NCBI GenBank assembly: GCA_944391565.1
Contig: CALXUB010000004.1
Span: forward strand, 46,180 to 110,179
DNA: 64,000 nucleotides
Direction: 5' to 3'
DNA from: an uncultured Alphaproteobacteria bacterium
GTDB taxonomy: Bacteria > Pseudomonadota > Alphaproteobacteria > CAAHEQ01 > UBA3637
Positions 1 through 50,501 of the stretch are shown piece by piece (the stretch's first letter is position 1; each line of letters begins with the position of its first letter). The notes under the pieces are model-generated. The model saw only the letters and a program-made list of their open reading frames with translations, did not search any database and was not told where the DNA came from. The translations under genes and the position numbers were made by a program.

Positions 1-2
1 TT

Positions 3-488
3 CGGATTACGCAGATGCAGCCGGATGCAACATTGTTGGATCGCGTGGCGGAATCTTTGGTGCGTCAATACATTGTGATGCGTCATGCGATTGTGTCCGA
101 TGTTGATGAGATGTTGCAACGTTGGGGCGACCGAGGCCCGATTAAATGGATGAGCTCGGATAACGTTTTTGCTGAATTTAACAGAACAACGAGTGAGTCT
201 TTTTCACGGATCCGTCAGGAACGTTTGACACGAGATGTAAATATTTTGTCAGCATATAAGCTGCAAACCGATCGTGTGAACGGCGATATTTGGGATGCCG
301 AGGTGGAGACGATTGACATGTTGCCGGAACGATCAGAACCCGTGCGGCAAACATGGCTGGTTCGCATGCAGATACAATTTTTGAATAAACAGGAAAAGTG
401 GGCAAACCGCTTGAAAAACCCGATTGGTTTTACGGTCGTGCGGTATAGTATTACGCCCAAGGGGAATACGACAACGGTTGGAGAATAA
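3..488 (+). CDS. virB8: VirB8-like T4SS inner-membrane protein, C-terminal part (5' end lies outside window)
   Basis: The reading frame is open from the window edge and there is no in-frame stop upstream of the ATG at 15. The C-terminus ...NPIGFTVVRYSITPK matches the VirB8 C-terminal NTF2-like signature NPLGF.V..Y. The gene sits immediately upstream of virB9/virB10/virB11 homologs. Confidence 0.6.
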   Translation, partial: RITQMQPDATLLDRVAESLVRQYIVMRHAIVSDVDEMLQRWGDRGPIKWMSSDNVFAEFNRTTSESFSRIRQERLTRDVNILSAYKLQTDRVNGDIWDAEVETIDMLPERSEPVRQTWLVRMQIQFLNKQEKWANRLKNPIGFTVVRYSITPKGNTTTVGE

Positions 489-608
489 AAACACTGGAAA
501 AATAACGGTTTGTTAATTTTTATGATTTAATATCATTTTTCAGTAGACTTTTGTTCTAAGTTTGATTTATTTTAGTGTTAGGTGTTAATCAATCGAAAGA
601 GTTCGCAC

Positions 609-2258
609 ATGTCAAAGATAAAAAATACAAAAAAATGGGTGATGATGGCAACGGTGGGCGTGTTTGCGCTGACCTCGACCATTGTTTTGGCGCAACAGGT
701 TCAACCAGGGGATGTGGATGCTGCTCAGATGAGCGATGCCATGGCTCAAACGGCGGGCAGTTTTGATGCCATTAACCTCAGCTATATCACATCGCTCGGA
801 ATGCAACAAAAAGCGTGGAACGATCCGATGCAGCATTTGGGCGAAGGGCAAATTAAGCCGGGTTATTCCCGTTATGTGTGGACACCGGATGTTGTGCTGC
901 CTCTTCGTTTGCGCGAAGGGATGATGACTTTGATTAACTTGCCGACATGGGAATTGATTGAAAAAGTCCATATCGGATCACCTGAATCTTTTGGCGGTGA
1001 AATTGCGGCACCGAACTCTTTGCTGCTTTATGCCGATCCGACTTATTTGGGTGTGGACAGCAACATGATTATCTTTGGCAGATCAGGCAACAGATATGTT
1101 TTCTATCTGCGCAGCGAAACTTATAACACGGATCGGATTACAAATGCGGTTGTGGATGTCTTAGTAGGACCCAAGTATACACCGGTTGCCGATGGCGGTA
1201 CATTGAATATTCCGAATGGTGCTTCCGTGACGGCTGGATCAACGGGAACTGCTCGTGCCGGGGCTCCCGGTTGGGCCAGTGCCGGCAGTATCGGACCCGG
1301 TGTTAATCAAAATCCGACCGTTGGACTGAATACGGCGGGTAATGCACCCAAAAATTGGTTAGAAACCATTCCTGTTGATCCGGAAAAGTTCCGTTTTGAT
1401 ATTGATGTCTTTATTCCGAACCCGAGTGATATTGAGTTAGCTCCGGAACGCGTCTGGCGAGATGATATTTTCACCTACATTGACTTTGGTAAAAAAGCTT
1501 TGACAATGACACAACGGCCGGTTGTCAATTTGATCGTTCAAGGTTCCGAAGTACCGGTTGGTTCTCGGACAAAAGGCGAACACAGTCGCTTGCTGGTTGT
1601 TGAAGGTGTGGGCGATATGGTTTTGCGCAACGGTCAGCGATTGGTTTGCTTGAAAATGCGTCGAGATCCGGCGATGGGGTTGGATCAGACGGATTACTCT
1701 TGGTCGGAAGAAAATCTCTGGCGGGCGGAACAGCCTTCTCAACAGGCACAACCGACCCCGCAGGCCTCCGGGTATGCTGCCACGACGGGAGACATGCAGG
1801 GAATGCAGCTGGTGGAACAGGTGAACATTAATCCCTATGGCGGTGTCACTGAGAACTTCTACAGCAACATGGCTCCTTTGCCTGCAAATGTCAGAAATAA
1901 TCCTCAGGCTTCTCAGGGGATTATGGATGTCATGCAGGGAATGGCTCCCGGGGTATCTGCTGCAGGTGCATCTCGGGCAGCTTTTAACGTGATGCCGGCT
2001 GACAATATTGCCATTGAGTTGGCAACAGGAACGAATATTTCTGATTTGGAGAATAAATGGGAACAAATTCGTTCCAGAAATAAAGCTTTGCTGCAAGGAT
2101 ATAATCCTTACTTCTCCGTTGATACAATGGCAGAAGGCGGTGCGCCTGAATTATTCCGTCTGCGCATTGGTCCTGTGTCTTCGGTCAGTGTCGGGGATGA
2201 TATCTGTGAACAGCTTTCTAAAAAAGGATTGATGTGCTCGGTAATCAGAACACAATAG
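609..2258 (+). CDS. virB9: VirB9/CagX-like T4SS outer-membrane core protein with extended Gly-rich linker and a Q/P/M-rich C-terminal tail ending in a SPOR-like motif
   Basis: A signal peptide (MSKIKNTKKWVMMATVGVFALTSTIVLAQQ) begins at the ATG at 609; the ORF track's start at 582 is a GTG. The N-domain pattern REGMMTLINLPTWELIEKVHIGSPESFGG...NSLLLYADPTYLGVD...GNRYVFYLRS fits VirB9. The C-domain PERVWRDDIFTYIDFGKKAL...PVVNLIVQGSEVPV...LLVVEGVGDMVLRNGQRLVCL fits VirB9. The extra ~190-aa tail ends in IAIELATG...FRLRIGPVSSVSVGDDICEQLSKKGLMC, which resembles a SPOR fold. Confidence 0.7.
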   Translation: MSKIKNTKKWVMMATVGVFALTSTIVLAQQVQPGDVDAAQMSDAMAQTAGSFDAINLSYITSLGMQQKAWNDPMQHLGEGQIKPGYSRYVWTPDVVLPLRLREGMMTLINLPTWELIEKVHIGSPESFGGEIAAPNSLLLYADPTYLGVDSNMIIFGRSGNRYVFYLRSETYNTDRITNAVVDVLVGPKYTPVADGGTLNIPNGASVTAGSTGTARAGAPGWASAGSIGPGVNQNPTVGLNTAGNAPKNWLETIPVDPEKFRFDIDVFIPNPSDIELAPERVWRDDIFTYIDFGKKALTMTQRPVVNLIVQGSEVPVGSRTKGEHSRLLVVEGVGDMVLRNGQRLVCLKMRRDPAMGLDQTDYSWSEENLWRAEQPSQQAQPTPQASGYAATTGDMQGMQLVEQVNINPYGGVTENFYSNMAPLPANVRNNPQASQGIMDVMQGMAPGVSAAGASRAAFNVMPADNIAIELATGTNISDLENKWEQIRSRNKALLQGYNPYFSVDTMAEGGAPELFRLRIGPVSSVSVGDDICEQLSKKGLMCSVIRTQ

Positions 2259-2287: not shown

Positions 2288-5200
2288 ATGGCGGACAATA
2301 TTTATCAAAGCTCTTTAGAGCAACATGTCAAGAAATCTAATCGAGTTTTTTTACTGGTTGGGATTCTTGCCCTTTTGGCGTTTTTGATCGCGTTATTTAT
2401 CTTTTCTAACGGAACAAAGCAGGCGCCTGATGAAACCATCATCGAATTTCCTGACAATCAGGGGCCTGATGTGACGGTTCCTAAAACAGATCCGCTGGAT
2501 TTGACACGACCCGTCGATGAAGGCTTGAATTTACGCGCAAGTCCGAGCAGCCTGATGTTAGAGGGCGTTGTTGTCGGCAGCTCGACTGAATCGGTGATTA
2601 CATTGCGTGCAGAAGGTGGTCCCATTCAGTTGGTCAGTTTAGATTTGGCTGAAACACAGCAGGACGGCTTTGTGATTGAAGGGGGTTGTAAAGCCGGAGA
2701 TATCATACCGCAAAACGGTTCTTGCAATCTTCGGGTTTTGTGGAATCCTGTGACGGTGCGACGGCTTCAGAATAACTTAGACATTCGTTGGAAACTAGAC
2801 GATCCGACAGCTTTCCCGCCTCCATCTGAAAAAACAATGATGATTACTTTATCGGGGCAGTCCGTAGATTCCGAACCTTGTGTGATTTGTGAAGACGTTA
2901 TTTCCGATAACGAAGCGAAAGAGCGTGAACGGCGATTGGGTGTTTTGGATCCTGAAACAGGCATGTATACCAAAGATGGTGAAATTGTCGGAATTATTGA
3001 GCCGGAAAAAATTGCCATCGCTTTGGACGGTACGCTGTTGGGTCAAATTTTAAAAGACACAAGCGAAGTCGTGGATGATCAAGGCAAAGTCATCGGTCGT
3101 ATTCTGCAGGATGATACGATTGTCAGCAAAGATCTGAAGGTTTTGGGTGCTGCTTTACCGCTTTTGCCGGTCTTGGACAGCACCGGTCAAGTAGTCGGTT
3201 CCTTGATTTCGGACGGGACAGTGGTTGATGCTAATCAAAAATTGGTCGGTTTGCCGATGGCTGATGGAACAATCGTCGGATTGGACGGACGGATTGTCGG
3301 GTCTGTCATGCCATGGGCCGTGGTGTTGAATTTGTCTTCTCAAGTCGTTGGTATTACGCAAAAAGACGGTTCTGTTATCAATATTGAAAAACAAAAAATC
3401 GGTCGAATCTTGCCGGGTGGTCTTGCCGTGAATGCGACAGGAAATATCATCGGCGGTGTTGTGCCTAAGGGATTGGCTATCGGTTATGGTTGTCACTCGC
3501 TGGGGAAAGTTCGTCCGAACGGAAAAATCATGAACGCCTTTGAGCAGCAGGTCGGTTATGTGACGATTGACGGGCTGGTTATGGATATGGGGGCTGTGCC
3601 AACCGGTATGGTTGTCCGCGAAGGTTTGGTGATTGATACGCAGGGCAACGTCATTGCTTTTGTCAATTCTGAAGGAAAAGCCATTACGGCCACAGCAGAT
3701 ATGCTGGGTTGTTTAAATCCTGACGGGACGGTTGCCGCCGGTAAAGACATTAAGGGAGCCGTTATGCCGCGCGGTCGTGTGGTCGGTTATGATTTGCAGG
3801 TTCAGGGTATCGTTTTACCTAACGGATCTGTGGTTAAACAAACGGGCGATGCGGTTGGTAAAGTTTTGTCAACCGGTTATGTTGTAGACATCAACAATAA
3901 AGTCTTTGGAGCGGTTGTGCCGAAAGGAACAGCAATTGCACAGGGCTGCGTTTTGTTGGGTATTATTGATTTGGATGGTCGTGTTTTGGATACTGCCGCC
4001 AAGCAAGTCGGAACAGTCAATCCCGATAAAAACGTTATGAATCAGGCGCGTGAGATTATCGGTGCTGTGACACCTGCCGGTGCGGTCGTGGGAATAGACG
4101 GTAAAATGATCGGCATTGTGCGTCCGGATGGTAAGGTCGTGGATAAAACAGGTCAGGTTATCGGCTGTGTCAACCCGGATGGCAGCGTTGTTAATGACAA
4201 GGGCGAAATAATCGGTCGAGTTGTTTCAATCGGTGGTGTTGTCTTGGACGAAAACGGTAATCCGACAGGCTGGACGGTTATCGGGACGGATGTCTATGAT
4301 GAAAACGGTCGCAAAGTCGGGACATTGATTGACGGTAAAGTCGTTAATGAACGGGGCGAGATTATCGGATTTATTCCACCGGACGGCATTATTGTTTCGC
4401 CGGAAGGACGCTTTTTGGGTCGCTTTACCAGCAAAACGGGTTATGCTGTGGATCAGGAAGGCAATCGCTTTGGCCGTGTTTTGCCTGATTTGACGGCGGT
4501 CAGTTTGGAAAAAAGCGAAATTATCGGTGCGTTGATTCCCGACGGCAGTCAGGTGATTAACATCAACGGTGAACGGATCGGTTCTATTCAGGCTGACGGC
4601 ACGGTGATTGATGTCAATTTGCAGCCGATGGGGATTATTCGTGCGGATGGATCTGTCGTGAATGCGGATGGTGTTATTTTGGGCGGTCTGATGCCGACCG
4701 GAACGGTTTTGGATTGGAACGGCACTGTCATCGGAAGTGTTCAGGGCAGCGGTAAGGTGATTTCGTCTTCTCAGACAGATATCGGGACTGTTCAGTTAAA
4801 CAGAACGGTGATTGATACGAACGGAAATGTGGTCGGTATGGTCTTTCCGGAAGCATCTATTCCTTTGGGTGAAAACGGTGAGCTGTTGGGCTTTTTGACC
4901 ATTAACGGAGACGTGAATAAAGACGGGAAAAAAATTGCTCATATGACGGCGGCCGGAACAATCTTTAATGAAGCCGGCGATGTGGCGGGCAGTTTGGTTC
5001 GTTTAGGGTCCGTAATGGGCAACAATAAAGAAATTCGCGGCTGGCTTTCTTTCCAAGGTAAATTGAACAATGTGGAAGGCAAACCAATCGGCTCTGTCAT
5101 GCCTGACGGATATGCCGTTAATGAAGAAGGCATGCAAATTGGGCACATCATTCCGCGTCAGACGGTCACGGATTTAAAAGGTGCCTTTGTCGGGACAGTC

Positions 5201-8200
5201 TCTGTCGACGGTCGTGTTTTGGGCCGGACTGGCGAAGTTTTAGGCGCATTCCCGTTTGACAATCGAATGATGAATGAAAACAACGTTTGGGTTGGTCGCG
5301 TTCTGCCTGCCGGATTGGCTTTGGACCCGGCCGGCGTATTCCTGGGCTACACACGTTATGACGGAGCTGTGGTTAACAACCGCGGTCAGTTGATTGGAAC
5401 GATTGCATCCGATAACCGTTTGTTGAATGCTGATGGAGAAGTGCTGGGACAATATATACCCTATGGTGCACTGGTCTTTGATCAAAAAGGAAAAGTGCTG
5501 GGTTCTATGGGCTTTGACGGCAAAGTTCGTAATGCCAAAGGCGGCGAGTTAGGCATCTTGATCGGGACGACGGTTGTGGATTCCAACAATAATGTCGTCG
5601 GTCAAGTGATGATCCCGGGCTATGCTTTGAACGAACAAGGTAAAGTGACTGGTCACATCTTCCCGAATGCAACTGTTTTGCGGAAGACAGATACCGAAAC
5701 GCTGCGTGATACCTATACAACCAGCCAGAGAATCGTCAATCGAGATCGACAGATCGTGGGTGGTTCAGTGCCTTTCGGAATTGCATTGGGATTAGATTTG
5801 GCTGTTCCGGGCAATGTCATGCCTGATGGTGGTGTAATGGGCGGAAATGCGCTTGCCGGTCGTGTTTTGACAGATGAGACTATGTATGATTTATTGGGTC
5901 GTGTATGGGGCGGCGTAATTGCTCCGAACGTTATTGTGTCAAAAGACGGTCATGTGGTCGGGTCTACATCAGTTTCTAATGCCATTAACGATATGCAGGG
6001 GACAAAGTTGGGAACGTTAATGCCTTTTGGTTCTGTTTTGACAACACAAAACGAATTGATCGGTTTGACGATGCCGACAGGTGTGGCTGTGAACGATTTT
6101 GCGAAAAAGCTGGGCTTTGTGGCTTCTGACGGTTCTGTTGTCAGTGCCGGCGGTGCTTTAGCCGGTCGGGCGATGCAGGACGGAACGATTGTTCAGCTGT
6201 TGACACGTGATGTTTATGGAACCATGCCGGATATCGGGGATGTTGTAGCCAGTGGTGTTGCAATCGGCTTGAAACCGGAATTATTCGGTCGAGCAATGCC
6301 TTCCGGAGATGTATTGAATAACTCTAATGAAACAATCGCTCAGATTTTGGATGATGCAACTTTGTTAGGCAAAGACGGTAATTTGGCCGGGGCACTGGTT
6401 GCTTGGCGCACGGCGATTGATCATCAAACAAACGTTATCGGAAATACAACCGGAGACGGAAATGTGACAAGCATTCAAGGCAATGTCATCGGTCATTTGG
6501 CTTCGAACGGAGCGGTGAAGGGGTCGCATGCGTTGAAGACACTGGGCGCGGTTATTCCGAATAATTTGGTGACGGATAACCAATGCCGAATTGTTGGTCA
6601 AGTTCGTTATGACGGACGTGTGATTGACGGTAATGGTCAAGTTGTCGCGGTGTTAAATCTGGATGGTTCTGCTGTTTCTCTGCAGGGAGCTAATGTCGGA
6701 GGCGTTGTTCAGAAAGGTTCTGTCATTGCACAAGATGGTACGCTTTTGGGGCGGACACTTCCGGATGCAGATGTCGTGGATTTAAGCGGTGTTTCCATCG
6801 GATGTTCTTTGTTCGACGGAACAGTGATTGACCATGATGGCAATGTCATTGGTCAAGTGTTAAAACGCGGCGTTGTCGTTGACGAAAATGGAAATGTGAT
6901 TGGTCGTGTGCTGCGTAATGGCCAGGTTGTTAACAGCAAAGGCGAAGTCATCGGTAAAGTACTGGGTGATGGCACGGTTGTCGATGAAAATGGCAATGTG
7001 CTGGGTCGTGTGATGGACTTGAAAAAAGAACAGTTGTTGTTTGATGAAAACGGCAAAATTACAGGGACGATGGACAAGGCTGGTCGTGTCTTTGATACAA
7101 AGGGCAAGCATTTGTTCACGGTCGGAGCTGATGGCACGCTGTATGATCCGAACGGCAACATTATCGGTCGAATTGATGATGACGGCAATATTTATGACAA
7201 TGCTGGCAACATCATCGGTAAAGTGGGTAAGGACGGAATTACATCCATGCCGAATTACTTGTATGACGCAGATGGCAATATCATCGGTTATATTAAGGAC
7301 GGTAAGGTCTTTAACACCAATGGCGAACAGATCGGTGAGGTATTGCCGGACGGCACGATTATGATTAACGGTAAACCATGGGGGCGCATTAACCCGGATG
7401 GCAGTATTACATTGTTCGGAGATGAAAGCTGTGAAAACAGTCAATATAACGGAAGCGTCACGGACAATGCCGGTAATCTGTTATACACAATCAAATGTGG
7501 CCGTGTTTATGATGCAAATGGTAATTTAATTGGGACCATTGATGAAAATGGCATTATTCGTGATCTGAACGGGAATATTATCGGAAGGATCGACGAATAC
7601 GGCAATTTATTAGATGCAAACGGCAATATTATCGGCAAGTGGACACCGGATGCAGTTGATTGCCTGCACGCGCAATACAATGGTTCTGTGCATGATAATA
7701 ACGGCAAGCTGCTTTATACCATTAAATGCGGTAAAGTTTATGATGCCAAAGGCAATCTGATCGGAACAATTGACGGCAATGGCGTCATTCGTGATTTGAA
7801 TGGCAATGTGATTGGTCGTATTGATGAGAATGGCAATTTGCTGGATCCGAATGGGAATATCATCGGAAAATGGACTTCAGATGATAATTGTATGAACGCC
7901 CAGTATAACGGAACGGTTCGGGATAATCAGGGACACGTTCTTTATACGATTAAGTGCGGGTATGTTTATGACGCTGAAGGCAACTTGATCGGAACGATCG
8001 ATGCAAATGGTGTTATTCGAGATCTGAACGGAAATGTGATCGGAACTTTACGTGATGGCGTTTTGTATGATCCAAATGGTAATCCGATTGGCAGATGGTC
8101 TCCTGAAAGCGGTGCAACGGGTTTTGTTTCCGGACGTAATTTGTTGGAAGGAACCGGTCTGGGGACTGGCGGATTGAACTTAAGCGGTCGCCGAATTGCC

Positions 8201-9655
8201 ATTGGGGATAAAGAGTTTATGGTTTTACCGGATAATTCCATTATTAACCCAATGACAGGTGCCGTGATTGGTCAGTTGAAAAACGGTGTGCCTTATTCCT
8301 TATCCAATAATTTGTTGGCTGATGAATTAGGAACCGGTACGGATCAAAAGTTCACGGGACAGGAGATTCTTCAATTCTCACCGGAACAGGCTGTTCAGAT
8401 GCGTAATTTGCTGGCAAAACGGCGTGAAAGCATGAAACAGGGGATTGGGTCTCAGTTGTCTAAAATTACTCCGGATGGACGTGTTTTGGCACGGGCCAAG
8501 AAAAAACAAGCCAAAGATTTTGGTTCGAAAAGTGTTTCAAGTTGGCCTGTGGACATGAGTCGCATGATTTTGAAAGACAAAGCGATACCAGCAGTGTTGC
8601 AGCGTTCGATTGACAGCCGTTATATGTCTGTTCCCGCATCTGCGATTGTGGAACGTCATGTTTATGCGGAAGATGGTCGAAACATTATTATTCCGGCCGG
8701 CAGTAAGTTGATTGGGTCTGTGACAGGAAGCCCGGGGACGAACCATGTGGCTAAGTTGGAGATTTCTTGGGAACGGCTCATTCGACCGGACGGCGGCTCC
8801 TTCACGCTTCAGGCGATCTCAGGTGACGCGCAGGGACGCGGTGGTGTGGCTGCATACCTGGATGAAATGTTCCTGGCTCGCTATGGCAAGCCGATTTTAC
8901 AGTCCACGATGGTTTCTGCAATCAGCTATTTGGTAGCTTCGGATGAGACAGTCACTCAAAATCAGAACTACGGGACATCTTCCCAATCTGATCGGGCTCA
9001 GGCTGCTCAAGAGGCGCGCGAGAACTTTATCGACGATATGGAAATGATTTTCAATCAATTGATTGAAGATTCTTCTACGACACCGCCGGTTGTCTTTGTG
9101 CCTTCGGGAACGCGAATGACGATTTTCGCTATGGAAGATTTGTGGCTGAGAACCGAAGAGGATGACGTAGATGACTATGAAGCTGAAATGGGCGCCGACA
9201 CAACGGAGGCCAGGACACCTGGTCAACAATACGGTATGGCTCAACGTCCTGTAGGCGGGTCACGGGGCGGAGCTGCTTCAACGGCGGAAATTTCTTCACC
9301 GGCTCAGCAGAATACATTTACCCCGACCGATGATATGTATTATGATCCGGGTTATACGGGAGACGGAGAAACACAAACCGCCATCGGCACAAATCAGGCA
9401 GACGGTTCGCAGACACTTTATGAACCGACGCCCGCATCAACTCAGTCATCTTCATCTCAAACAGCAAGTTCGACGAATGCAAATACCTCTGGCGGTCGTC
9501 CGATGACATTGGAAGAGCTGTATAATTCTCAACAGGGATTGAGTTCTTACTCATCCGATACAGATAACAACCGGATTGCGGCTCCGTTGCAACAGCGACA
9601 GCGAACAACGTCTCAGGGAGGAGGTTCTTCTTCCTCTTCCTTGGAACTGTTCTAG
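2288..9655 (+). CDS. virB10: Giant VirB10/TrbI-family protein (CagY-like): N-terminal TM anchor, ~1700-aa repetitive spacer, C-terminal VirB10 beta-barrel domain, disordered S/T/Q-rich tail
   Basis: N-terminus KKSNRVFLLVGILALLAFLIALFIF is a single TM helix as in VirB10. A C-terminal segment (nt ~8490-9160) reads IPAVLQRSIDSRYMSVPASAIVERHVYAEDGRNIIIPAGSKLIGSVTG...AKLEISWERLIRPDGGSFTLQAISGDAQGRGGVAAYLDEMF...PPVVFVPSGTRMTIFAMEDLWL, which matches the TrbI/VirB10 C-domain pattern. Between the TM helix and this domain lie hundreds of degenerate ~15-aa DG.V[VI]D.NG.V[IL]G.V units. It is a single uninterrupted 2455-codon ORF. Confidence 0.75.
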   Translation: MADNIYQSSLEQHVKKSNRVFLLVGILALLAFLIALFIFSNGTKQAPDETIIEFPDNQGPDVTVPKTDPLDLTRPVDEGLNLRASPSSLMLEGVVVGSSTESVITLRAEGGPIQLVSLDLAETQQDGFVIEGGCKAGDIIPQNGSCNLRVLWNPVTVRRLQNNLDIRWKLDDPTAFPPPSEKTMMITLSGQSVDSEPCVICEDVISDNEAKERERRLGVLDPETGMYTKDGEIVGIIEPEKIAIALDGTLLGQILKDTSEVVDDQGKVIGRILQDDTIVSKDLKVLGAALPLLPVLDSTGQVVGSLISDGTVVDANQKLVGLPMADGTIVGLDGRIVGSVMPWAVVLNLSSQVVGITQKDGSVINIEKQKIGRILPGGLAVNATGNIIGGVVPKGLAIGYGCHSLGKVRPNGKIMNAFEQQVGYVTIDGLVMDMGAVPTGMVVREGLVIDTQGNVIAFVNSEGKAITATADMLGCLNPDGTVAAGKDIKGAVMPRGRVVGYDLQVQGIVLPNGSVVKQTGDAVGKVLSTGYVVDINNKVFGAVVPKGTAIAQGCVLLGIIDLDGRVLDTAAKQVGTVNPDKNVMNQAREIIGAVTPAGAVVGIDGKMIGIVRPDGKVVDKTGQVIGCVNPDGSVVNDKGEIIGRVVSIGGVVLDENGNPTGWTVIGTDVYDENGRKVGTLIDGKVVNERGEIIGFIPPDGIIVSPEGRFLGRFTSKTGYAVDQEGNRFGRVLPDLTAVSLEKSEIIGALIPDGSQVININGERIGSIQADGTVIDVNLQPMGIIRADGSVVNADGVILGGLMPTGTVLDWNGTVIGSVQGSGKVISSSQTDIGTVQLNRTVIDTNGNVVGMVFPEASIPLGENGELLGFLTINGDVNKDGKKIAHMTAAGTIFNEAGDVAGSLVRLGSVMGNNKEIRGWLSFQGKLNNVEGKPIGSVMPDGYAVNEEGMQIGHIIPRQTVTDLKGAFVGTVSVDGRVLGRTGEVLGAFPFDNRMMNENNVWVGRVLPAGLALDPAGVFLGYTRYDGAVVNNRGQLIGTIASDNRLLNADGEVLGQYIPYGALVFDQKGKVLGSMGFDGKVRNAKGGELGILIGTTVVDSNNNVVGQVMIPGYALNEQGKVTGHIFPNATVLRKTDTETLRDTYTTSQRIVNRDRQIVGGSVPFGIALGLDLAVPGNVMPDGGVMGGNALAGRVLTDETMYDLLGRVWGGVIAPNVIVSKDGHVVGSTSVSNAINDMQGTKLGTLMPFGSVLTTQNELIGLTMPTGVAVNDFAKKLGFVASDGSVVSAGGALAGRAMQDGTIVQLLTRDVYGTMPDIGDVVASGVAIGLKPELFGRAMPSGDVLNNSNETIAQILDDATLLGKDGNLAGALVAWRTAIDHQTNVIGNTTGDGNVTSIQGNVIGHLASNGAVKGSHALKTLGAVIPNNLVTDNQCRIVGQVRYDGRVIDGNGQVVAVLNLDGSAVSLQGANVGGVVQKGSVIAQDGTLLGRTLPDADVVDLSGVSIGCSLFDGTVIDHDGNVIGQVLKRGVVVDENGNVIGRVLRNGQVVNSKGEVIGKVLGDGTVVDENGNVLGRVMDLKKEQLLFDENGKITGTMDKAGRVFDTKGKHLFTVGADGTLYDPNGNIIGRIDDDGNIYDNAGNIIGKVGKDGITSMPNYLYDADGNIIGYIKDGKVFNTNGEQIGEVLPDGTIMINGKPWGRINPDGSITLFGDESCENSQYNGSVTDNAGNLLYTIKCGRVYDANGNLIGTIDENGIIRDLNGNIIGRIDEYGNLLDANGNIIGKWTPDAVDCLHAQYNGSVHDNNGKLLYTIKCGKVYDAKGNLIGTIDGNGVIRDLNGNVIGRIDENGNLLDPNGNIIGKWTSDDNCMNAQYNGTVRDNQGHVLYTIKCGYVYDAEGNLIGTIDANGVIRDLNGNVIGTLRDGVLYDPNGNPIGRWSPESGATGFVSGRNLLEGTGLGTGGLNLSGRRIAIGDKEFMVLPDNSIINPMTGAVIGQLKNGVPYSLSNNLLADELGTGTDQKFTGQEILQFSPEQAVQMRNLLAKRRESMKQGIGSQLSKITPDGRVLARAKKKQAKDFGSKSVSSWPVDMSRMILKDKAIPAVLQRSIDSRYMSVPASAIVERHVYAEDGRNIIIPAGSKLIGSVTGSPGTNHVAKLEISWERLIRPDGGSFTLQAISGDAQGRGGVAAYLDEMFLARYGKPILQSTMVSAISYLVASDETVTQNQNYGTSSQSDRAQAAQEARENFIDDMEMIFNQLIEDSSTTPPVVFVPSGTRMTIFAMEDLWLRTEEDDVDDYEAEMGADTTEARTPGQQYGMAQRPVGGSRGGAASTAEISSPAQQNTFTPTDDMYYDPGYTGDGETQTAIGTNQADGSQTLYEPTPASTQSSSSQTASSTNANTSGGRPMTLEELYNSQQGLSSYSSDTDNNRIAAPLQQRQRTTSQGGGSSSSSLELF
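7430..8107 (+). repeat. Three tandem ~231/228/219-bp coding repeats inside virB10 (77-aa Cys-bracketed modules)
   Basis: Units start at 7430 (CENSQYNGSV...), 7661 (CLHAQYNGSV...) and 7889 (CMNAQYNGTV...). Each encodes C-x3-QYNG[ST]V-xDN-xG-x-[LV]LYTIKCG-xVYDA-xGNLIGTID-xNG[IV]IRDLNGN[IV]IG. The protein is highly conserved across units but many synonymous nucleotide differences are present. Confidence 0.85.
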
Positions 9656-9666: not shown

Positions 9667-10656
9667 ATGCCTGAGCTTTCCATATCCGAAACTTACAAAG
9701 TTTTGGAATCGGCTCTGCGACCACTGTCATACTGGTATACACAGGATAATGTGGAAGAAGTGGCCGTAGACCATCCCGGTTCTATTTGGTTGCGTTTGCG
9801 TGGGAAAAGGGCTTTTCCTTGGGTTGAGCAAATTGATCCTAAATTAACACGAGAGTATTTGAATAATATTCTTTATATTATTGCAAACAGTTATGACTAT
9901 TCTTTTGAACCGACGGAAGGAACACCCGTCGTTTATGCGACGCTGCCCGGCGGACACCGTTTTACGGGCATCAGCGGTCGAAATGTCATGTATGATAATG
10001 ACGATTTAACGGGTGGTGTGGCGTTGGCTATTCGTGTTTACAAGGAAGATGTCGGCATTGAGTTTAAAGACTTTAATTTGGAACAGGGTGAACGATTAAG
10101 GCCTTTAAGCAAGCTGGCCAATGTGGAAGATCCGGATGATCCGTATGATCGTTTGCTGTTGTCGATTCGCAAAGGTGAACATATTTTGATCAGCGGAGGA
10201 ACGGCGACAGGTAAAACAACATTTTTAAATAATATGATTAAGCTGGTGGATGAACATAAACGCATTCTGACCATTGAAGATACGCGCGAGTTGATTGTCC
10301 CGCATAAAAACCGAGTTCACATTGTTCTGCCTCGTACAGACCAAACAAATGGATTTACTTATCCGCGCGTGATTGACTTGGTCGTGCGTTTTACGCCGGA
10401 TGCAATTATCGGCGGTGAGATTTCCACATCAAATGCCAGTGCTATTTGGGAACTGATGGGATCAGGTCACGAAAACTGTTTTGCAACCATTCATGCTGAG
10501 AATCCGGATGAGGCTTATAAAGCGTTTGTCGCACGAATTATGCGGACGACACCAACCATCGATCGTGATAAAACGTTGCGGGAAATGCGTGATAAGCTGC
10601 GGGTGGTACAAATTAACCGGAATGGCAACATTCGTGCCGTGACGGCGATTACATAG
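9667..10656 (+). CDS. virB11: VirB11-family T4SS traffic ATPase
   Basis: Walker A ILISGGTATGKTTFLN is present. IEDTRELIV and RFTPDAIIGGEI motifs are typical of VirB11/TrbB hexameric ATPases. The length (329 aa) and the position after virB10 are consistent. Confidence 0.85.
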   Translation: MPELSISETYKVLESALRPLSYWYTQDNVEEVAVDHPGSIWLRLRGKRAFPWVEQIDPKLTREYLNNILYIIANSYDYSFEPTEGTPVVYATLPGGHRFTGISGRNVMYDNDDLTGGVALAIRVYKEDVGIEFKDFNLEQGERLRPLSKLANVEDPDDPYDRLLLSIRKGEHILISGGTATGKTTFLNNMIKLVDEHKRILTIEDTRELIVPHKNRVHIVLPRTDQTNGFTYPRVIDLVVRFTPDAIIGGEISTSNASAIWELMGSGHENCFATIHAENPDEAYKAFVARIMRTTPTIDRDKTLREMRDKLRVVQINRNGNIRAVTAIT

Positions 10657-10675: not shown

Positions 10676-10706
10676 AGGCACATCTTCAAGATGTGCCTTT
10701 CTTTTT
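10676..10706. terminator. Bidirectional rho-independent terminator between convergent virB11 and minus-strand operon
   Basis: The hairpin GGCACATCTTCAAGATGTGCC is followed by TTTCTTTTT, with an A-run on the other side. Confidence 0.7.
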
Positions 10707-11286
10707 AACGTGCGCCGGTCGGCGGAATGTTAATTTGAGCAATCCAGCCCGGTCGAATGATGCTGGTCGCGTATTCAATGTTGCCTAACTCAATTGTATA
10801 GCTGGCCACACCGGTCATCCGAGAAGCTTCTTGGTAAAAATCGCGGGCTTCTCTATCCCGACGTGAAGGATTTTGTAAATAAAGCACACAGCCTTGTGTT
10901 CTTTCGGCAATACCACAGCGTTGTCTGTTCGCGGGTACTTCAGGATTTAAAACAACACCCGTTAAACCTTGTGTTCGTGTTTTGCCGCTGTCTCCGGACA
11001 TACTGCATCCCAGCATCATACCGAACAGTAAAACAATGACAAGAATAGCAGCCATTATTTTGGTCTGCAAAAAACTAGGAGGCAGTCCAAGTTGAGCAGC
11101 AAAGTTGTCATCATAAAGCCCTTTATCAGGAGAAACCGCTGCCGGCTGGGATAATGTTTTTTCATAAGCCGGAATGGACGGAGCCGCCGTTTTTGTCCCG
11201 TTCGGCGAGGGAGCTGCTGTCGGCGCTGCCATTCCTTTGGACGGAATATTGGGCGCTTTAAAGACAGGTTTTGGTGCTTCAGTCAT
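10705..11286 (-). CDS. Hypothetical bitopic membrane protein (Pro/Ala-rich cytoplasmic N-term, one TM, ~100-aa periplasmic domain); last gene of minus-strand T4SS-associated operon
   Basis: An AAGGAG RBS and an ATG lie 1 nt after the upstream stop (MTEAPKPVFK...). It has a single hydrophobic segment, IMAAILVIVLLFGMMLGC. I recognise no family. Confidence 0.5.
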   Translation of the reverse strand: MTEAPKPVFKAPNIPSKGMAAPTAAPSPNGTKTAAPSIPAYEKTLSQPAAVSPDKGLYDDNFAAQLGLPPSFLQTKIMAAILVIVLLFGMMLGCSMSGDSGKTRTQGLTGVVLNPEVPANRQRCGIAERTQGCVLYLQNPSRRDREARDFYQEASRMTGVASYTIELGNIEYATSIIRPGWIAQINIPPTGAR

Positions 11287-11287
11287 T

Positions 11288-12739
11288 TTATTCTCCTTCT
11301 TTGACAAGGCGCAAAATGCGCGGCTGCATCGTAATTAAATATTCCACACCTTTCCAATCCTTGTTAAAGACAGAGCCCGGTATACCGATAATGCTCAAAT
11401 TATCATCAATCGTATAGAAAGAGTAAAAAGATGTGATTTCACCGTTAATCGTATCTAAAGAAATGTTGGATTCAATCCGATCCGGTGATTGGATATTGCT
11501 TTGCAGGAGTAAAGACAAATCTCTTTCCGGCGTTTGGAAACGAGCGCATTGACCGATATCAAAACGAACTTTCCAAGCATTGGGCATAATTGCAACGCCT
11601 TCGGAAACCAAGCTGACATTCGCTTGTTTTTGCAGGCTGTCAATCAAAGAATAATGACGTTTTTGGTGACCCGTAATGACCATGCGTCCGACAATGCCAC
11701 CAACGGACATGTTAACCCGTTTGACGCCGAAGTTTTGAATAATGGTTTGCCAATCCAATGCCGGTGTATCGGGCCGTTCAGTCAATCGATAGACTTTGAT
11801 GTCCATCATCAAAAGCCGCGGATCTTCTTTTAAATAACCAATCAGACGTTCGATAACGGCTTGTTTTTCCGTATTAATGCGGAAATACAATGTGTTTGTT
11901 CCAAAATCGGGTTGAACGTTTGTAATCCCGGCGCCGCGTAAGGCATCCAAAACAGCAAATAAACCGACACGTCCGCCCGGAACAGCTAACTCAAAACGAG
12001 CCCATCTGGACAAATACAATTTCTTTTTGGTTGCATCATAACGGAAATAGGCATCCCCGGCATTGACTAATTCCTCGATCACGGCAGAGAGTTCTCCGCG
12101 AACATCTTCGGCGGATATTTCCGGATACAATCCGTCGTCAGAAAAAACATGAATACCGGCTTCCGTCACCAAGTTTTGAATAGCCAAATCCAAAGGTTGA
12201 TTGGTGAATGTATAACCGTTCACTTCATATCTTGGAAGCGGGTCATTTTTGTCAAGCCGCGTCATTTTAAAGTCATCCGGGTTCATGGGGATATTGGAAA
12301 TAATTTCCTTTGTCGGGAAAGGAATTTCGCAGCGAATCGGCGTTTCAATATTTAATCCGGCGGCTGATGAAGCATCGGCCACGGTAATATCACTGCCTTT
12401 TTGCAGTTGACGGTTCAGCTGTTGTTGTTCATTAAAGCGAGCGATCGGCGATCCCGGTTGAGGTGCAGCGTTCGGAACTTCAATAACTTGAGCCGGTTGA
12501 ATAATCACCGGCATAATGACAGGTCCCAGATTTTGCTGTGTGACGGGACAGGGATCCGGACATTGAACTTGAAAACTTGCTGCCGGTGCTTGATAGGCTG
12601 CTGCTGCCGGCATGCATGGTGCGGCCGCTTGTTCGACCTGAGCCAAACCGGGCTGCGCCCAAACCATCAGAGCAACTGCTCCGGCAAGCAAAAGACTTGT
12701 TTTTTTGATGTGATTGGTTGTATGTGTCATCAGCGTCAC
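11288..12739 (-). CDS. Secreted hypothetical protein, 483 aa, with possible degenerate secretin-like C-terminal motif
   Basis: It has a GTG start abutting the upstream stop and a signal peptide (KKTSLLLAGAVALMVWAQPGLAQ). The C-terminus IIGIPGSVFNKDWKGVEYLITMQPRIL loosely resembles the secretin motif VP.LG.LF....ELL.FITP.I. The rest is unassigned. Confidence 0.45.
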   Translation of the reverse strand: MTLMTHTTNHIKKTSLLLAGAVALMVWAQPGLAQVEQAAAPCMPAAAAYQAPAASFQVQCPDPCPVTQQNLGPVIMPVIIQPAQVIEVPNAAPQPGSPIARFNEQQQLNRQLQKGSDITVADASSAAGLNIETPIRCEIPFPTKEIISNIPMNPDDFKMTRLDKNDPLPRYEVNGYTFTNQPLDLAIQNLVTEAGIHVFSDDGLYPEISAEDVRGELSAVIEELVNAGDAYFRYDATKKKLYLSRWARFELAVPGGRVGLFAVLDALRGAGITNVQPDFGTNTLYFRINTEKQAVIERLIGYLKEDPRLLMMDIKVYRLTERPDTPALDWQTIIQNFGVKRVNMSVGGIVGRMVITGHQKRHYSLIDSLQKQANVSLVSEGVAIMPNAWKVRFDIGQCARFQTPERDLSLLLQSNIQSPDRIESNISLDTINGEITSFYSFYTIDDNLSIIGIPGSVFNKDWKGVEYLITMQPRILRLVKEGE

Positions 12740-14245
12740 CTATTCCTTTTTTGTTTTATCAGCCGAAGAAGCGACATTCAATGAGTCAAAGTCGACTTGT
12801 GCTTCTTCTTCCGTTTTTTTATAGTCTTCAATAATTTTTTCCGGCGAGACTTCATAAGGGTCTTCAATCATTTCAAAACCATCCGGTGCCGGTCCGATAA
12901 ATTCTTTTTCCTGACTGGTATCCATTTCTCCCAAAACTTGTCGAGGATCGACTTCGTTTTTTTCTTCAACAGGTTTGAGATTTTCCGGCAGGTCTTCCAA
13001 TTCCTTTTCCAACGCCTTCAGCAAGTTTTGCATTCCTTCACGACCACCCGGCACTTCGGCATCGATGACTTCTTCTAAAAGCTGATTTTCCAACAAATTT
13101 TGGATATTTTCTTTTAATTCGTTCATCAAATCAACGACAAAACCGTAATAGGGATATTCCGTTTTGTCCATGTTGCCCAAACGAACACAGCGGGCGCTGA
13201 TCCAATTCGTAGCCTCTTCGTATAGATTCTTTTGGCGCATGAAATTCGCCATTTCCCAGTTTTTGGTTTTTGGAATTTGCAAATTAGGATCATCCGCCGG
13301 AATTTCAGGTGTCACGGGAACTTCCTTGGGCGCCAGCATTTCCAAAACTTCCGTTTCGGTTGCTGTTTCTTCTTCGATCGCTTCATCAGCCGGTTGTTGT
13401 GTCGGATAAAGGGGCATGTCAGAAACAGCTTCGACCGTTTCTTCTGCAGGAACATCCGGAAGAGCAGGCATTTCAGATAAGTGAATTTCTTCTGCCGTTT
13501 CAACTTCTGTCATCGGATTTGCCGTTTCAAGCGCCTGTGTTGTCACGTCGTCTTGAATGGTCTGTTCAAGGGCTTGTGCTTGTTGGTCCGAAATCGGTTC
13601 TTCTTCCGACATTGTTTCCGGTTGGGTCGGCAAAGAAACCTCTTGCTCGGTCGAAGCAATCATTTCTTCGCTGTTTTCTTGTTCAACAACCATCGTCTCC
13701 GTTGTTGAAGGTAAATTTTCTTCATCGGTGTCAGATAAAGGTTGTTCCGGCTCAAAAACAGCTGTTTGTTGCGTTTCTTGCACAAAAGACTGATTATCTT
13801 TTTGCTCTTCGGCCATTATTTCAGAGACGGCTTCCACCGGAGTCGAAGCATCATTTTGAGTTGCGTCATTCAGCAGGTCTTTCAGTTGGTTGACAACTTT
13901 TGTTCCTTCTTCTCCAAATAATGCCAGCCAATATTCCAATGTCGGAATGCGCTCAATGAGCTGCATGTTATTAACGGACTGTGGTGCGTTAATGTATTGA
14001 TATGCTTCTTCCCAAGCGGCAAGAGCGCCGTAATAATGAATAGCGTGATCTGCCTTTTTCTTCAGCATGTCCTTTGTCGCGTCATCAATACCGGTCATGG
14101 TATCCAACGACGTTTGAATGAAATTCATCCATTCGGGACCTAAGATGTCTTCAGCCTTTTCAACCAAAGGCGTTAATGTTTCCTGATTTTCCTGATAAGC
14201 AATCAAAGCTTCTATCAGCGGCTGCAGCGTTGGATCAATGTTCAT
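12740..14245 (-). CDS. Highly acidic hypothetical cytoplasmic protein (~501 aa)
   Basis: An ATG at 14245 has an AAGGA RBS; the ORF track's upstream TTG start is less likely. The protein is E/D/Q-rich with no TM helix and no Walker motif. Confidence 0.5.
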   Translation of the reverse strand: MNIDPTLQPLIEALIAYQENQETLTPLVEKAEDILGPEWMNFIQTSLDTMTGIDDATKDMLKKKADHAIHYYGALAAWEEAYQYINAPQSVNNMQLIERIPTLEYWLALFGEEGTKVVNQLKDLLNDATQNDASTPVEAVSEIMAEEQKDNQSFVQETQQTAVFEPEQPLSDTDEENLPSTTETMVVEQENSEEMIASTEQEVSLPTQPETMSEEEPISDQQAQALEQTIQDDVTTQALETANPMTEVETAEEIHLSEMPALPDVPAEETVEAVSDMPLYPTQQPADEAIEEETATETEVLEMLAPKEVPVTPEIPADDPNLQIPKTKNWEMANFMRQKNLYEEATNWISARCVRLGNMDKTEYPYYGFVVDLMNELKENIQNLLENQLLEEVIDAEVPGGREGMQNLLKALEKELEDLPENLKPVEEKNEVDPRQVLGEMDTSQEKEFIGPAPDGFEMIEDPYEVSPEKIIEDYKKTEEEAQVDFDSLNVASSADKTKKE

Positions 14246-14305
14246 TCTTTTATCCTTATCCGTCTTTCTTTTCCTCAAGTATAAATAAAGATAGTTAATG
14301 TTTCT

Positions 14306-18747: not shown

Positions 18748-18749
18748 TT

Positions 18750-49737: not shown

Positions 49738-49750
49738 ATTTGAATAATAC

Positions 49751-50499: not shown

Positions 50500-50501
50500 A
50501 A

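What the first reader, a model, noticed from the sequence alone, without database searches (positions are those of the whole stretch)
609..2258. VirB9 homolog enlarged to 550 aa with Gly-rich linker and a C-terminal SPOR-like peptidoglycan-binding motif
Both VirB9 domains are recognisable. A ~70-aa G/A/S/P-rich insertion lies between them. A ~190-aa Q/P/M-rich tail ends with IAIELATG...FRLRIGPVSSVSVGDDICEQLSKKGLMC, which follows the beta-alpha-beta-beta pattern of SPOR domains; compare the clear SPOR domain on the PBP at 43486-44751. A SPOR-anchored VirB9 would tether the T4SS outer-membrane core to peptidoglycan, which has not been described for VirB9 proteins to my knowledge.
Basis: inference. 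Interest (0 to 1): 0.55.

Follow-up and report, generated by a model that had tools for sequence, protein, structure and literature searches.

The report
VirB9 secretion-channel protein carrying SPOR domain
The gene encodes the VirB9 outer-membrane core subunit of a type IV secretion system with a real C-terminal SPOR-type cell-wall-binding domain, a combination I found in no paper, but the glutamine that normally grips the cell-wall sugar chain is always glutamate here, so what the domain binds is open.

Summary
Window 609..2258 (+) encodes a 549-aa secreted VirB9 between virB8 and a giant virB10. It has both VirB9 domains, a 64-aa Gly/Ala-rich inter-domain linker, a 112-aa variable tail and an 84-aa C-terminal domain.

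The C-terminal domain is a SPOR homologue. Pfam SPOR is just below threshold on this protein, but 64 of 70 homologues match it. A profile of the domain retrieves bona fide SPOR proteins (hhalign 99.8%, E 4e-29). The AlphaFold model (pLDDT 86) is beta-alpha-beta-beta-alpha-beta, and its best named structural matches are the RlpA and CwlC SPOR domains.

The fusion is present in all 83 related loci, from gut and rumen Alphaproteobacteria MAGs. A diverged form occurs in plasmid conjugation operons of cultured Sphingosinicella and Erythrobacter.

The canonical glycan-binding Gln is replaced by Glu in 120 of 120 sequences, and by Asp in the plasmid clade. The same change (Q251E) weakens FtsN binding. 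The SPOR identification is therefore solid, while a peptidoglycan tether or positioning role is plausible but unproven. No paper in the searchable library describes this. I rate it a new variant of a known kind, of moderate interest.

The parts
609..2258 (+). virB9-SPOR gene: 549 codons plus stop
   Evidence: ORF list. An identical 549-aa gene is called on contig ERR9661566_44289. Pfam CagX/VirB9 E 4e-12.
609..695 (+). Sec-type signal peptide, residues 1-29 (MSKIKNTKKWVMMATVGVFALTSTIVLA|Q); no lipobox cysteine
   Evidence: Read directly from the sequence. Helix 4-21 in the model. No signal-peptide predictor was available, so this is an inference.
735..866 (+). Conserved N-terminal extension, residues 43-86, ahead of the Pfam-matched VirB9 core
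   Evidence: 80% mean identity, fixed length of 44 aa and many invariant residues. Also covered by tblastn matches to plasmid VirB9s, which start at residues 40-46.
867..1178 (+). VirB9 N-terminal beta-domain, residues 87-190
   Evidence: First half of the Pfam PF03524 match. Weak alignment to Xanthomonas VirB9 6gyb residues 31-112. 91% mean identity among homologues.
1179..1370 (+). Gly/Ala/Thr/Asn/Pro-rich inter-domain linker, residues 191-254 (64 aa)
   Evidence: Composition and length range of 55-68 aa. pLDDT below 50. Accounts for the ~65 extra residues relative to the Pfam model.
1371..1667 (+). VirB9 C-terminal beta-domain, residues 255-353, containing invariant Cys347
   Evidence: Second half of the Pfam PF03524 match. 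TIGR02781 VirB9 match at residues 274-348. 6gyb residues 159-251.
1668..2003 (+). Variable, probably disordered tether, residues 354-465 (112 aa; Q/P/M/A/G-rich)
   Evidence: 12-26% identity and length variation of its three segments: 40-121, 22-26 and 15-44 aa. pLDDT below 50.
1869..1934 (+). Conserved motif inside the tether, residues 421-442 (MAPLP..V..SP.AS.GI.DVM); predicted short helices
   Evidence: Invariant or near-invariant M421, P423, P425, V428, S431, A434, I438. Helices 426-429 and 432-443 at pLDDT about 55. Function unknown.
2004..2255 (+). C-terminal SPOR-family domain, residues 466-549. Glu470 sits at the canonical Gln site, with R517/R519, W484 and the Cys533/Cys543 pair
1..488 (+). 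3' part of virB8; the gene starts upstream of the window
   Evidence: Pfam VirB8 E 8.5e-7, matching profile positions 76-211 only. The full 254-aa VirB8 is present in L001 and L083.
2288..9655 (+). Giant virB10 (2455 aa): beta-flower repeat array plus a C-terminal TrbI/VirB10 domain. It is the partner subunit of VirB9 in the core complex
   Evidence: Pfam Bflower_2 E 3.5e-114 (21 stretches) and TrbI E 5.8e-30 at residues 2094-2287. NCBIfam VirB10. Over 2000 aa in 70 of 74 related loci.
9667..10656 (+). virB11 ATPase
   Evidence: Pfam T2SSE E 1e-20. TIGR02788 VirB11 E 6.5e-40.

Best explanation
This is the VirB9 subunit of a chromosomal, highly diverged type IV secretion system of an uncultured gut or rumen alphaproteobacterium. 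After a signal peptide it has the two VirB9 beta-domains that, with VirB7 and VirB10, build the outer-membrane core complex. The VirB9 C-terminal domain is followed by a ~110-residue flexible tether and an 84-residue SPOR-family domain. These parts are shown.

Inferred: VirB9 is present in many copies per machine (about 14 in solved type IVA core complexes, from established knowledge). The complex would therefore carry a ring of SPOR domains on leashes of roughly 8 nm mean reach, long enough to reach the peptidoglycan layer under the outer membrane. The most likely role is to bind the glycan backbone of peptidoglycan. That would fix or position the channel in the sacculus by avidity, and possibly deliver new machines to amidase-processed wall at the septum or new pole.

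The binding chemistry is probably not the textbook one. The Gln that hydrogen-bonds the MurNAc lactyl carboxylate is an invariant Glu here, and Asp in the plasmid clade. The stacking aromatic residue is lost. The Arg pair on strand beta3 is kept.
For: **VirB9 identity**
- PF03524 scores above its cut-off and spans both domains.
- The gene order is virB8-virB9-virB10-virB11. A VirB7-like lipoprotein and VirB2/VirB4 genes lie upstream in related loci.

**SPOR homology**
- Pfam SPOR is the only other family hit on the query.
- 64 of 70 homologues match it.
- The only PDB sequence hit of the domain profile is the CwlC SPOR domain.
- A profile of the domain finds 727 proteins. Beyond the VirB9 fusions, all ten that I scanned are bona fide SPOR proteins, with Pfam SPOR scores of 52-106 bits.
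- hhalign against 45 domains that all pass Pfam SPOR gives 99.8% probability and E 3.7e-29 over 88 columns.
- That independent SPOR profile scores the window's VirB9 tail higher (59 bits) than the window's own PBP SPOR domain (28 bits).

**Fold**
- The AlphaFold2 model has pLDDT 86 and topology beta-alpha-beta-beta-alpha-beta. The domain is again at pLDDT 90-97 in the full-length run.
- The top three Foldseek hits are RlpA, RlpA and CwlC, with TM 0.69-0.70.

**Selection on the ligand face**
E470, W484, R517, R519, C533 and C543 are invariant in 120 of 120 sequences. The RLR motif matches the R309/R311 basic patch of RlpA and R285 of FtsN (PMC6895207).

**Conservation of the architecture**
All 83 related loci have it. 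A second clade has it on plasmids of cultured Sphingosinicella and Erythrobacter.

**Precedent for a peptidoglycan-binding part in a T4SS core**
In Legionella, DotK contacts DotD, DotH and peptidoglycan (10.1101/315721).
Against: - No binding data exist.
- The best-conserved glycan-contact residue of SPOR domains (Gln; Pfam HMM position 8) is Glu here. The engineered equivalent, FtsN Q251E, reduces septal localisation and denuded-glycan binding.
- The aromatic residue at the RlpA F274 position is absent.
- The same genome keeps Gln and Phe in its PBP SPOR domain, so the change is specific to VirB9.
- The query itself is below Pfam's SPOR cut-off.
- In more distant VirB9-type sequences R517 is often His.
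- The VirB9 domains were modelled poorly (pLDDT below 50), so the geometry of the tether relative to the core complex is inferred from canonical systems.
Confidence: 0.6

Rival explanations
1. The domain is a SPOR homologue that has been repurposed. The acidic residue at the Gln site marks a switch to another ligand. Candidates are a differently modified glycan (for example de-N-acetylated GlcN, whose amine a carboxylate could bind), a non-peptidoglycan polysaccharide, or a T4SS partner protein.
For: - Glu is present in 120 of 120 sequences, and Asp in 34 of 34 sequences of the plasmid clade, at the site where Q251E impairs FtsN.
- The stacking aromatic residue is lost.
- Strand beta2 and its flanking loops (Y498, P500, Y501, S503, A508) are invariant in the VirB9 type, whereas the consensus of ordinary SPOR domains of the same subfamily is largely undefined there.
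- Canonical SPOR domains do not tolerate N-deacetylated GlcNAc (PMC6895207).
Against: - About 16% of non-VirB9 SPOR domains of the same Cys-pair subfamily also carry Glu and still pass Pfam SPOR, so Glu is a natural variant.
- The Arg pair that binds the lactyl carboxylate is retained.
- Most glycan contacts in RlpA are made by backbone atoms of the beta-sheet.
- No partner protein is indicated by any result here.
Confidence: 0.25
2. The domain mainly acts as a targeting signal rather than an anchor. It would bring nascent VirB9 or core complexes to amidase-processed septal wall, so that machines end up at new poles. This overlaps with the best explanation.
For: - All characterised SPOR domains target proteins to septal denuded glycans (abstracts listed).
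- Polar placement matters for another T4SS, Legionella Dot/Icm (10.1101/315721).
- The organism has at least one other SPOR protein, the PBP, so denuded-glycan targeting probably operates in it.
Against: - The Gln-to-Glu change is expected to weaken exactly this recognition.
- There are no localisation data.
- The plasmid clade belongs to conjugation-type systems, and nothing found here indicates that these need polar placement.
Confidence: 0.3
3. The C-terminal domain is not SPOR. It would be an unrelated ferredoxin-like or RRM-like fold, or a ring-building motif, that resembles SPOR by chance.
Against: - hhalign gives 99.8% probability against domains that all pass Pfam SPOR.
- 64 of 70 homologues match Pfam SPOR.
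Confidence: 0.03
4. The long protein is an assembly or gene-calling artefact that fuses virB9 to a separate SPOR gene.
For: None found.
Against: There is a single uninterrupted frame. Full-length matches to residue 549 occur in 79 of the 80 listed species-level genomes and to residue 548 in the other (L045), and in all 83 loci. The protein is identical on an independent assembly.
Confidence: 0.01

Closest known systems
Canonical VirB9/TraO/TrbG subunits of type IVA secretion systems (Pfam PF03524; e.g. Xanthomonas VirB9, PDB 6gyb)
   Same: Signal peptide, N- and C-terminal beta-domains, position between virB8 and virB10, and a small VirB7-like lipoprotein encoded upstream in related loci.
   Different: - Very diverged: TIGR02781 scores 33.5 bits against a cut-off of 217.7, and a family profile finds nothing in the PDB.
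- Has a conserved 44-aa N-terminal extension.
- The inter-domain linker is about 65 aa longer than in the Pfam model.
- Carries a 196-aa C-terminal tether plus SPOR domain.
- The Roseibium (325 aa) and Paracaedimonas (318 aa) VirB9 proteins have no such tail.
SPOR domains of FtsN, DamX, DedD, RlpA and CwlC (Pfam PF05036)
   Same: Same beta-alpha-beta-beta-alpha-beta RNP-like fold. Same Y/F-R-x-R-x-G-P strand beta3 with its basic patch. Attached through a long disordered linker, as is typical of SPOR proteins.
   Different: - Fused to a secretion-system core subunit rather than a cell-division or cell-wall enzyme.
- The conserved Gln is replaced by Glu or Asp, and the aromatic residue at Pfam HMM position 12 is lost.
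- It belongs to a subfamily with an invariant Cys-x9-Cys pair (helix alpha2 to strand beta4), which differs from the FtsN C252-C312 pair.
Legionella Dot/Icm DotK (an outer-membrane lipoprotein that contacts peptidoglycan next to DotH, whose C-terminus is VirB9-like)
   Same: A peptidoglycan-contacting element at the periphery of a T4SS outer-membrane core, thought to stabilise the complex in the envelope (10.1101/315721).
   Different: DotK is a separate accessory protein. From my own knowledge, its wall-binding domain is OmpA-like. Here the wall-binding-type module is SPOR and is covalently part of VirB9.
Helicobacter Cag system, CagX/CagY (enlarged VirB9 and VirB10 homologues)
   Same: VirB9 and VirB10 homologues are both greatly enlarged, and VirB10 carries a long repeat array. 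This comparison rests on my own knowledge; the sizes here come.
   Different: From my own knowledge, CagX is extended N-terminally and has no SPOR domain. The repeats here are beta-flower units (PF21785), not CagY repeats.
Plasmid VirB9 proteins WP_129392748.1 (Sphingosinicella sp. BN140058 p1) and WP_115418090.1 (Erythrobacter aureus YH-07 plasmid)
   Same: 38-40% identity over the VirB9 core, including the N-terminal extension. They also end in a SPOR-like domain with an acidic residue at the Gln site, VRLRVGPF and the Cys pair.
   Different: - 430-432 aa, with a much shorter tether.
- Asp instead of Glu at the Gln site.
- Pfam SPOR gives no hit.
- Normal-size VirB10 (about 530-550 aa).
- Located in conjugation-type operons with a coupling protein; the Sphingosinicella plasmid also carries a MobA/MobL relaxase.

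Membership tests
VirB9/TrbG/CagX (Pfam PF03524) | Match to the family profile above the curated cut-off, covering both beta-domains | tested here: met
   46.8 bits against a cut-off of 34.2, E 4.2e-12, residues 87-349 on profile positions 4-196 of 198. 70 of 70 homologues match.
VirB9/TrbG/CagX (Pfam PF03524) | Genomic position inside a virB-type operon, between virB8 and virB10 | tested here: met
   VirB8 at 1..488, VirB10 at 2288..9655, VirB11 at 9667..10656. The same order is found in L081, L082 and L083.
VirB9/TrbG/CagX (Pfam PF03524) | Periplasmic export (N-terminal signal peptide) | tested here: inconclusive
   A basic n-region, a hydrophobic core and a VLA|Q site are visible in the sequence. 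No signal-peptide predictor was available.
P-type VirB9 equivalog (NCBIfam TIGR02781) | Score above the equivalog cut-off | tested here: not met
   33.5 bits against a cut-off of 217.7, and only residues 274-348 match. It is a family member but not an equivalog of the Agrobacterium-type protein.
SPOR domain (Pfam PF05036) | Match to the family profile above the gathering score | tested here: inconclusive
   The query scores 15.4 bits as a whole protein and 19.4 bits as the tail alone, against a cut-off of 21. 64 of 70 homologues match at E<=0.01, the best at 8.3e-7. Many homologues carry a precomputed PF05036 tag.
SPOR domain (Pfam PF05036) | Homology to accepted members shown by profile-profile comparison | tested here: met
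   hhalign A2 against A3 gives 99.8% probability and E 3.7e-29 over 88 columns. All 45 sequences in A3 pass Pfam SPOR at E<=0.001. The A3 profile scores the window's tail at 59 bits.
SPOR domain (Pfam PF05036) | RNP-like beta-alpha-beta-beta-alpha-beta fold, with a four-stranded sheet backed by two helices | tested here: met
SPOR domain (Pfam PF05036) | Conserved Gln on strand beta1 that contacts MurNAc and GlcNAc (RlpA Q270, FtsN Q251, DamX Q351) | tested here: not met
   Glu in 120 of 120 sequences. Asp in 34 of 34 sequences of the plasmid clade. The site was aligned through the Pfam match (profile position 8) and through the FtsN alignment. This residue is a functional hallmark, not a criterion of homology.
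SPOR domain (Pfam PF05036) | Basic patch on the sheet that binds the lactyl carboxylate (RlpA R302/R309/R311; FtsN R285) | tested here: met
   R517 and R519 (FRLRIGP) are invariant in 120 of 120 sequences. In distant members R517 is sometimes His, while R519 is kept.
SPOR domain (Pfam PF05036) | Binding to peptidoglycan glycan strands that lack stem peptides | not testable with these tools
   Needs sacculus pull-down, ITC or mass spectrometry with defined glycans.

The most novel reading that the evidence does not exclude
VirB9-linked SPOR domains would be a distinct functional class in which an acidic residue (Glu or Asp) replaces the universal Gln. This would retune recognition to a different wall chemistry, for example de-N-acetylated or otherwise modified glycan, or the edges of the hole cut for the machine. 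A ring of about 14 such domains would then let the secretion channel sense and lock into a specific peptidoglycan site. This would be a wall-chemistry-based way of placing an envelope-spanning machine.
Probability: 0.2. Interest if true: 0.7.

Novelty: new variant of a known kind. Interest (0 to 1): 0.5.

Why it matters
How type IV secretion machines pass through and are held in the peptidoglycan layer is poorly understood. In type IVA systems, as far as I know, no core subunit with a wall-binding domain has been described. A VirB9 carrying a SPOR module gives a concrete, testable link between the outer-membrane core and the sacculus. It is conserved across more than 80 species-level genomes of uncultured gut and rumen Alphaproteobacteria. 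It is also present on plasmids of cultured Sphingomonadales, where genetics is possible.

The invariant Gln-to-Glu/Asp change is a natural version of a known loss-of-binding mutation. It could therefore also show how much SPOR ligand specificity can vary.

Tried and rejected
- A homologue search with the tail alone returned only six short fragments and added nothing.
- A profile of the full-length family found nothing in PDB sequences. The single-sequence search gave only a marginal VirB9 hit at E 0.34.
- Full-length AlphaFold2 gave a poor model outside the SPOR domain (mean pLDDT 50). No geometry of the VirB9 domains or the tether could be derived, and it was not used for fold search.
The Cys533-Cys543 distance and a superposition on RlpA-glycan (6i09) could not be computed.
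- The taxonomy look-up of 'Acetobacter sp. CAG:977' failed. Placing this clade in GTDB order RF32 is from memory only.
- Searches for papers linking VirB9 or T4SS with SPOR returned nothing relevant, as did a search for RF32 plus T4SS.
- I considered a generic RRM/ACT/ring-building-motif fold and an assembly artefact, and rejected both (see the rival explanations).
- The Microvirga plasmid VirB9 (550 aa) has a tail that looks SPOR-like by eye and has a Cys pair. It does not score with either profile, so it is not counted.
Full report
**1. The observation**

The window has one long ORF at 582..2258 on the + strand. The first ATG is at 609 and gives 549 aa. An identical 549-aa gene is called on an independent assembly.

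Pfam gives one CagX/VirB9 match (PF03524, E 4.2e-12, 46.8 bits against a cut-off of 34.2). It runs from residue 87 to 349 and covers profile positions 4-196 of 198. Both VirB9 domains are therefore present, with about 65 extra residues between them.

An alignment of 70 full-length homologues and a per-region analysis give this anatomy:

| Residues | Feature | Notes |
|---|---|---|
| 1-29 | Signal peptide | No lipobox cysteine |
| 43-86 | Conserved N-terminal extension | 80% identity, fixed length |
| 87-190 | VirB9 N-terminal domain | 91% identity |
| 191-254 | Linker | G12 A10 T8 N7 P6; 55-68 aa in homologues |
| 255-353 | VirB9 C-terminal domain | |
| 354-465 | Variable tail | Segments of 40-121, 22-26 and 15-44 aa; contains a conserved motif at 421-442 |
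| 466-549 | Well-conserved C-terminal domain | Fixed length of 84 aa |

This includes the clear SPOR domain on the Peptidase_S11 PBP at 43486..44751 (E 9e-10).

**2. Is the C-terminal domain SPOR?**

On the query alone, Pfam SPOR (PF05036) is the only other family reported. It is below the gathering score of 21 bits: 15.4 bits on the whole protein and 19.4 bits (E 0.0013) on the tail alone. Four independent lines take the identification beyond that.

- **(a) Family members.** 64 of 70 homologues match SPOR at E<=0.01, the best at 8.3e-7. Many carry a precomputed PF05036 tag.
- **(b) Link through accepted SPOR proteins.**
  - A profile of the domain (alignment A2) searched against 1.84 billion representative proteins finds 727 hits.
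  - After the VirB9 fusions, all ten hits that I scanned are bona fide SPOR proteins, with Pfam SPOR scores of 52-106 bits. They often have two or three SPOR domains, combined with TPR, ankyrin or BcsS modules.
  - I aligned 45 such domains as A3. All 45 pass Pfam SPOR at E<=0.001.
  - hhalign of A2 against A3 gives 99.8% probability and E 3.7e-29 over 88 columns.
  - A3 contains no VirB9 sequence. It scores the window's VirB9 tail at 59 bits, higher than the window's own PBP SPOR domain at 28 bits.
  - A3 was selected by similarity to A2. The independent element is therefore its Pfam membership.
- **(c) PDB sequences.** The only hit of A2 is the CwlC SPOR domain (E 0.19). A3 hits CwlC (E 5.6e-5) and FtsN.
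- **(d) Fold.**
  - AlphaFold2 on A2 gives pLDDT 86 and a beta-alpha-beta-beta-alpha-beta topology. This is reproduced at pLDDT 90-97 in the full-length run.
  - The top three Foldseek hits are RlpA, RlpA and CwlC (TM 0.69-0.70). All others have TM of 0.47 or less.

I conclude that the domain is a SPOR homologue.

**3. What kind of SPOR domain?**

All but one of the 293 domains retrieved share two cysteines, Cys533 and Cys543 in the query, in helix alpha2 and at the start of strand beta4. The window's PBP SPOR domain has them too. This defines a Cys-pair subfamily.

The key functional residues of SPOR domains are known from the RlpA-glycan structures:
- Q270 (FtsN Q251, DamX Q351; Pfam HMM position 8) hydrogen-bonds the MurNAc lactyl carboxylate and the GlcNAc N-acetyl group.
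- F274 (HMM position 12) stacks on a sugar.
- A basic patch (R302, R309, R311; FtsN R285) holds the carboxylate (PMC6895207).

In the VirB9 domain the Pfam alignment places Glu470 on HMM position 8. The FtsN alignment agrees. Among 120 homologues:
- The Gln site is Glu in 120 of 120.
- The F274 site is N, H or G in 111 of 120.
- R517, R519, W484, C533 and C543 are invariant.

The same genome's PBP SPOR domain keeps the canonical WSIQVGAF. Among non-VirB9 domains of the subfamily, Gln is found in 73% and Glu in 16%.

FtsN Q251E is reported to reduce septal localisation and denuded-glycan binding of the isolated domain (10.1101/2024.05.13.594014). The fold and half of the binding site are therefore conserved, but the textbook recognition mode is in doubt. 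The strict conservation of Glu argues that it is functional rather than decay.

**4. Distribution and context**

The best 80 genome loci are all species representatives of uncultured Alphaproteobacteria from human, ruminant, rabbit and other guts. A few are mis-binned under other names. Among them are 'Acetobacter sp. CAG:977' and several UBA genomes. Every one matches through to residue 548 or 549.

All 83 loci held contain the VirB9-type SPOR domain. In 70 of 74 loci where the next gene is complete, that gene is longer than 2000 aa. In the window it is a 2455-aa VirB10 with about 21 beta-flower repeats and a C-terminal TrbI domain.

Distant members keep the virB8-virB9(SPOR)-giant virB10 order, and virB11 follows in L082. 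Housekeeping genes flank the system in L082 and L001, so the system is chromosomal.

Two other features appear in related loci:
- A 58-63-aa VirB7-like lipoprotein (lipobox LVAC or LAGC) is encoded just upstream of virB8.
- An 823-aa VirB5-like protein is also present.

All components score far below the NCBIfam equivalog cut-offs.

**5. A second clade**

tblastn against plasmids found no full-length match. The nearest annotated relatives align only over residues 40-352 at 34-40% identity.

However, the Sphingosinicella sp. BN140058 p1 protein (WP_129392748.1, 430 aa) and the Erythrobacter aureus plasmid protein (WP_115418090.1, 432 aa) also have C-terminal tails. These tails score 28-29 bits with the bona fide SPOR profile A3. 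They read ...YMVDLGAG...VRLRVGPF...C...C..., with Asp at the Gln site. Pfam SPOR gives no hit on them.

Of 40 homologues of that protein, 37 have the domain, and Asp is present in 34 of 34 aligned sequences.

These genes sit in conjugation-type operons with VirB4, VirB8, a normal-size VirB10, VirB11 and a coupling protein, and the Sphingosinicella plasmid also carries a MobA/MobL relaxase. The Roseibium (325 aa) and Paracaedimonas (318 aa) VirB9 proteins have no tail.

The VirB9-SPOR architecture, with an acidic residue at the Gln site, is therefore older and wider than the gut clade. It also exists in cultured strains.

**6. Mechanism**

Shown: a secreted VirB9 with both core domains, a flexible tether and a SPOR-family domain under strong purifying selection.

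Inferred from established knowledge of type IVA core complexes: VirB9 is multimeric, with about 14 copies, and its C-terminal domain lies just under the outer membrane. A 112-residue random coil has a mean reach of roughly 8 nm and a contour length of about 40 nm. This matches the gap between the outer membrane and the peptidoglycan.

The most likely role is multivalent binding to the glycan backbone of the sacculus, to fix or place the machine (confidence about 0.6). Septal or polar targeting is a compatible sub-hypothesis. A changed ligand is the main rival (about 0.25), because of the Glu/Asp substitution.

The closest functional precedent is DotK of the Legionella Dot/Icm system, a separate lipoprotein that contacts DotH and peptidoglycan.

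**7. Novelty**

Searches for VirB9 or T4SS together with SPOR found no paper that describes this. The library is incomplete. Automated Pfam tagging already shows the domain pair on many homologues, and NCBI names them only 'TrbG/VirB9 family'.

I rate it a new variant of a known kind: a known core subunit with a known wall-binding fold in an undescribed combination, plus an unusual binding-site signature. Interest is moderate (0.5). It is not paradigm-changing, but it is directly testable and relevant to how T4SSs are set into the cell wall.

Noticed in passing
window 2288..9655 (+): Giant VirB10 of 2455 aa. It has about 21 beta-flower repeats (PF21785, PF21784, DUF3659), a few YD/RHS-like units and a C-terminal TrbI/VirB10 domain at residues 2094-2287. 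The gene after VirB9-SPOR is longer than 2000 aa in 70 of 74 related loci. This may be more unusual than the SPOR fusion itself.
   Followed up: partly
L083 3209-3385 and L082 9028-9219 (upstream of the window's start): A VirB7-like lipoprotein of 58-63 aa (lipobox LVAC or LAGC) with a conserved SPCACL.VE..PGLPEW motif lies directly upstream of virB8. VirB9 has an invariant Cys347 that could pair with it, as happens in Agrobacterium VirB7-VirB9.
   Followed up: partly
window 735..866 and 1869..1934 (+): VirB9 has two further conserved additions of unknown function. One is a 44-aa N-terminal extension (residues 43-86), which is shared with plasmid relatives. The other is a short motif in the disordered tail (residues 421-442, MAPLP..V..SP.AS.GI.DVM) that is predicted to be helical.
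   Followed up: partly
window 10705..15148 (-), 16225..22517 (-): Next to the virB genes is a block of large ORFs with no Pfam or NCBIfam match (200, 483, 512, 280, 445, 381 and 478 aa). The block also holds an 840-aa protein with only a weak TrbL/VirB6 match (E 8e-5), and a double-HTH regulator lies at 15170..16111. These may be lineage-specific T4SS parts or effectors.
   Followed up: partly
window 43486..44751 (-): D-Ala-D-Ala carboxypeptidase (Peptidase_S11) with a C-terminal SPOR domain. It keeps the canonical WSIQVGAF motif and has the same Cys-x9-Cys pair as the VirB9 domain.
   Followed up: yes
proteins P0151-P0274 (not in the window): A large SPOR subfamily with an invariant Cys pair (292 of 293 domains). 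Proteins often have two or three copies, combined with ankyrin, TPR or BcsS modules. The role of the cysteines is untested; a disulfide between helix alpha2 and strand beta4 is possible.
   Followed up: partly
L001 3331-5802: An 823-aa protein whose residues 516-657 match the VirB5-type family PF07996. It is another enlarged component of this T4SS and lies upstream of the window.
   Followed up: no
window 48001..56000: G+C falls to 0.35-0.39, against 0.42-0.49 across nearly all of the rest of the window. This may be an island or acquired segment.
   Followed up: no
L086 5746-7398 (Microvirga sp. VF16 pMVF16-3): A 550-aa plasmid VirB9. Its proline-rich tail ends in a sequence that looks SPOR-like by eye and has a Cys pair, but it scores with neither SPOR profile.
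   Followed up: partly
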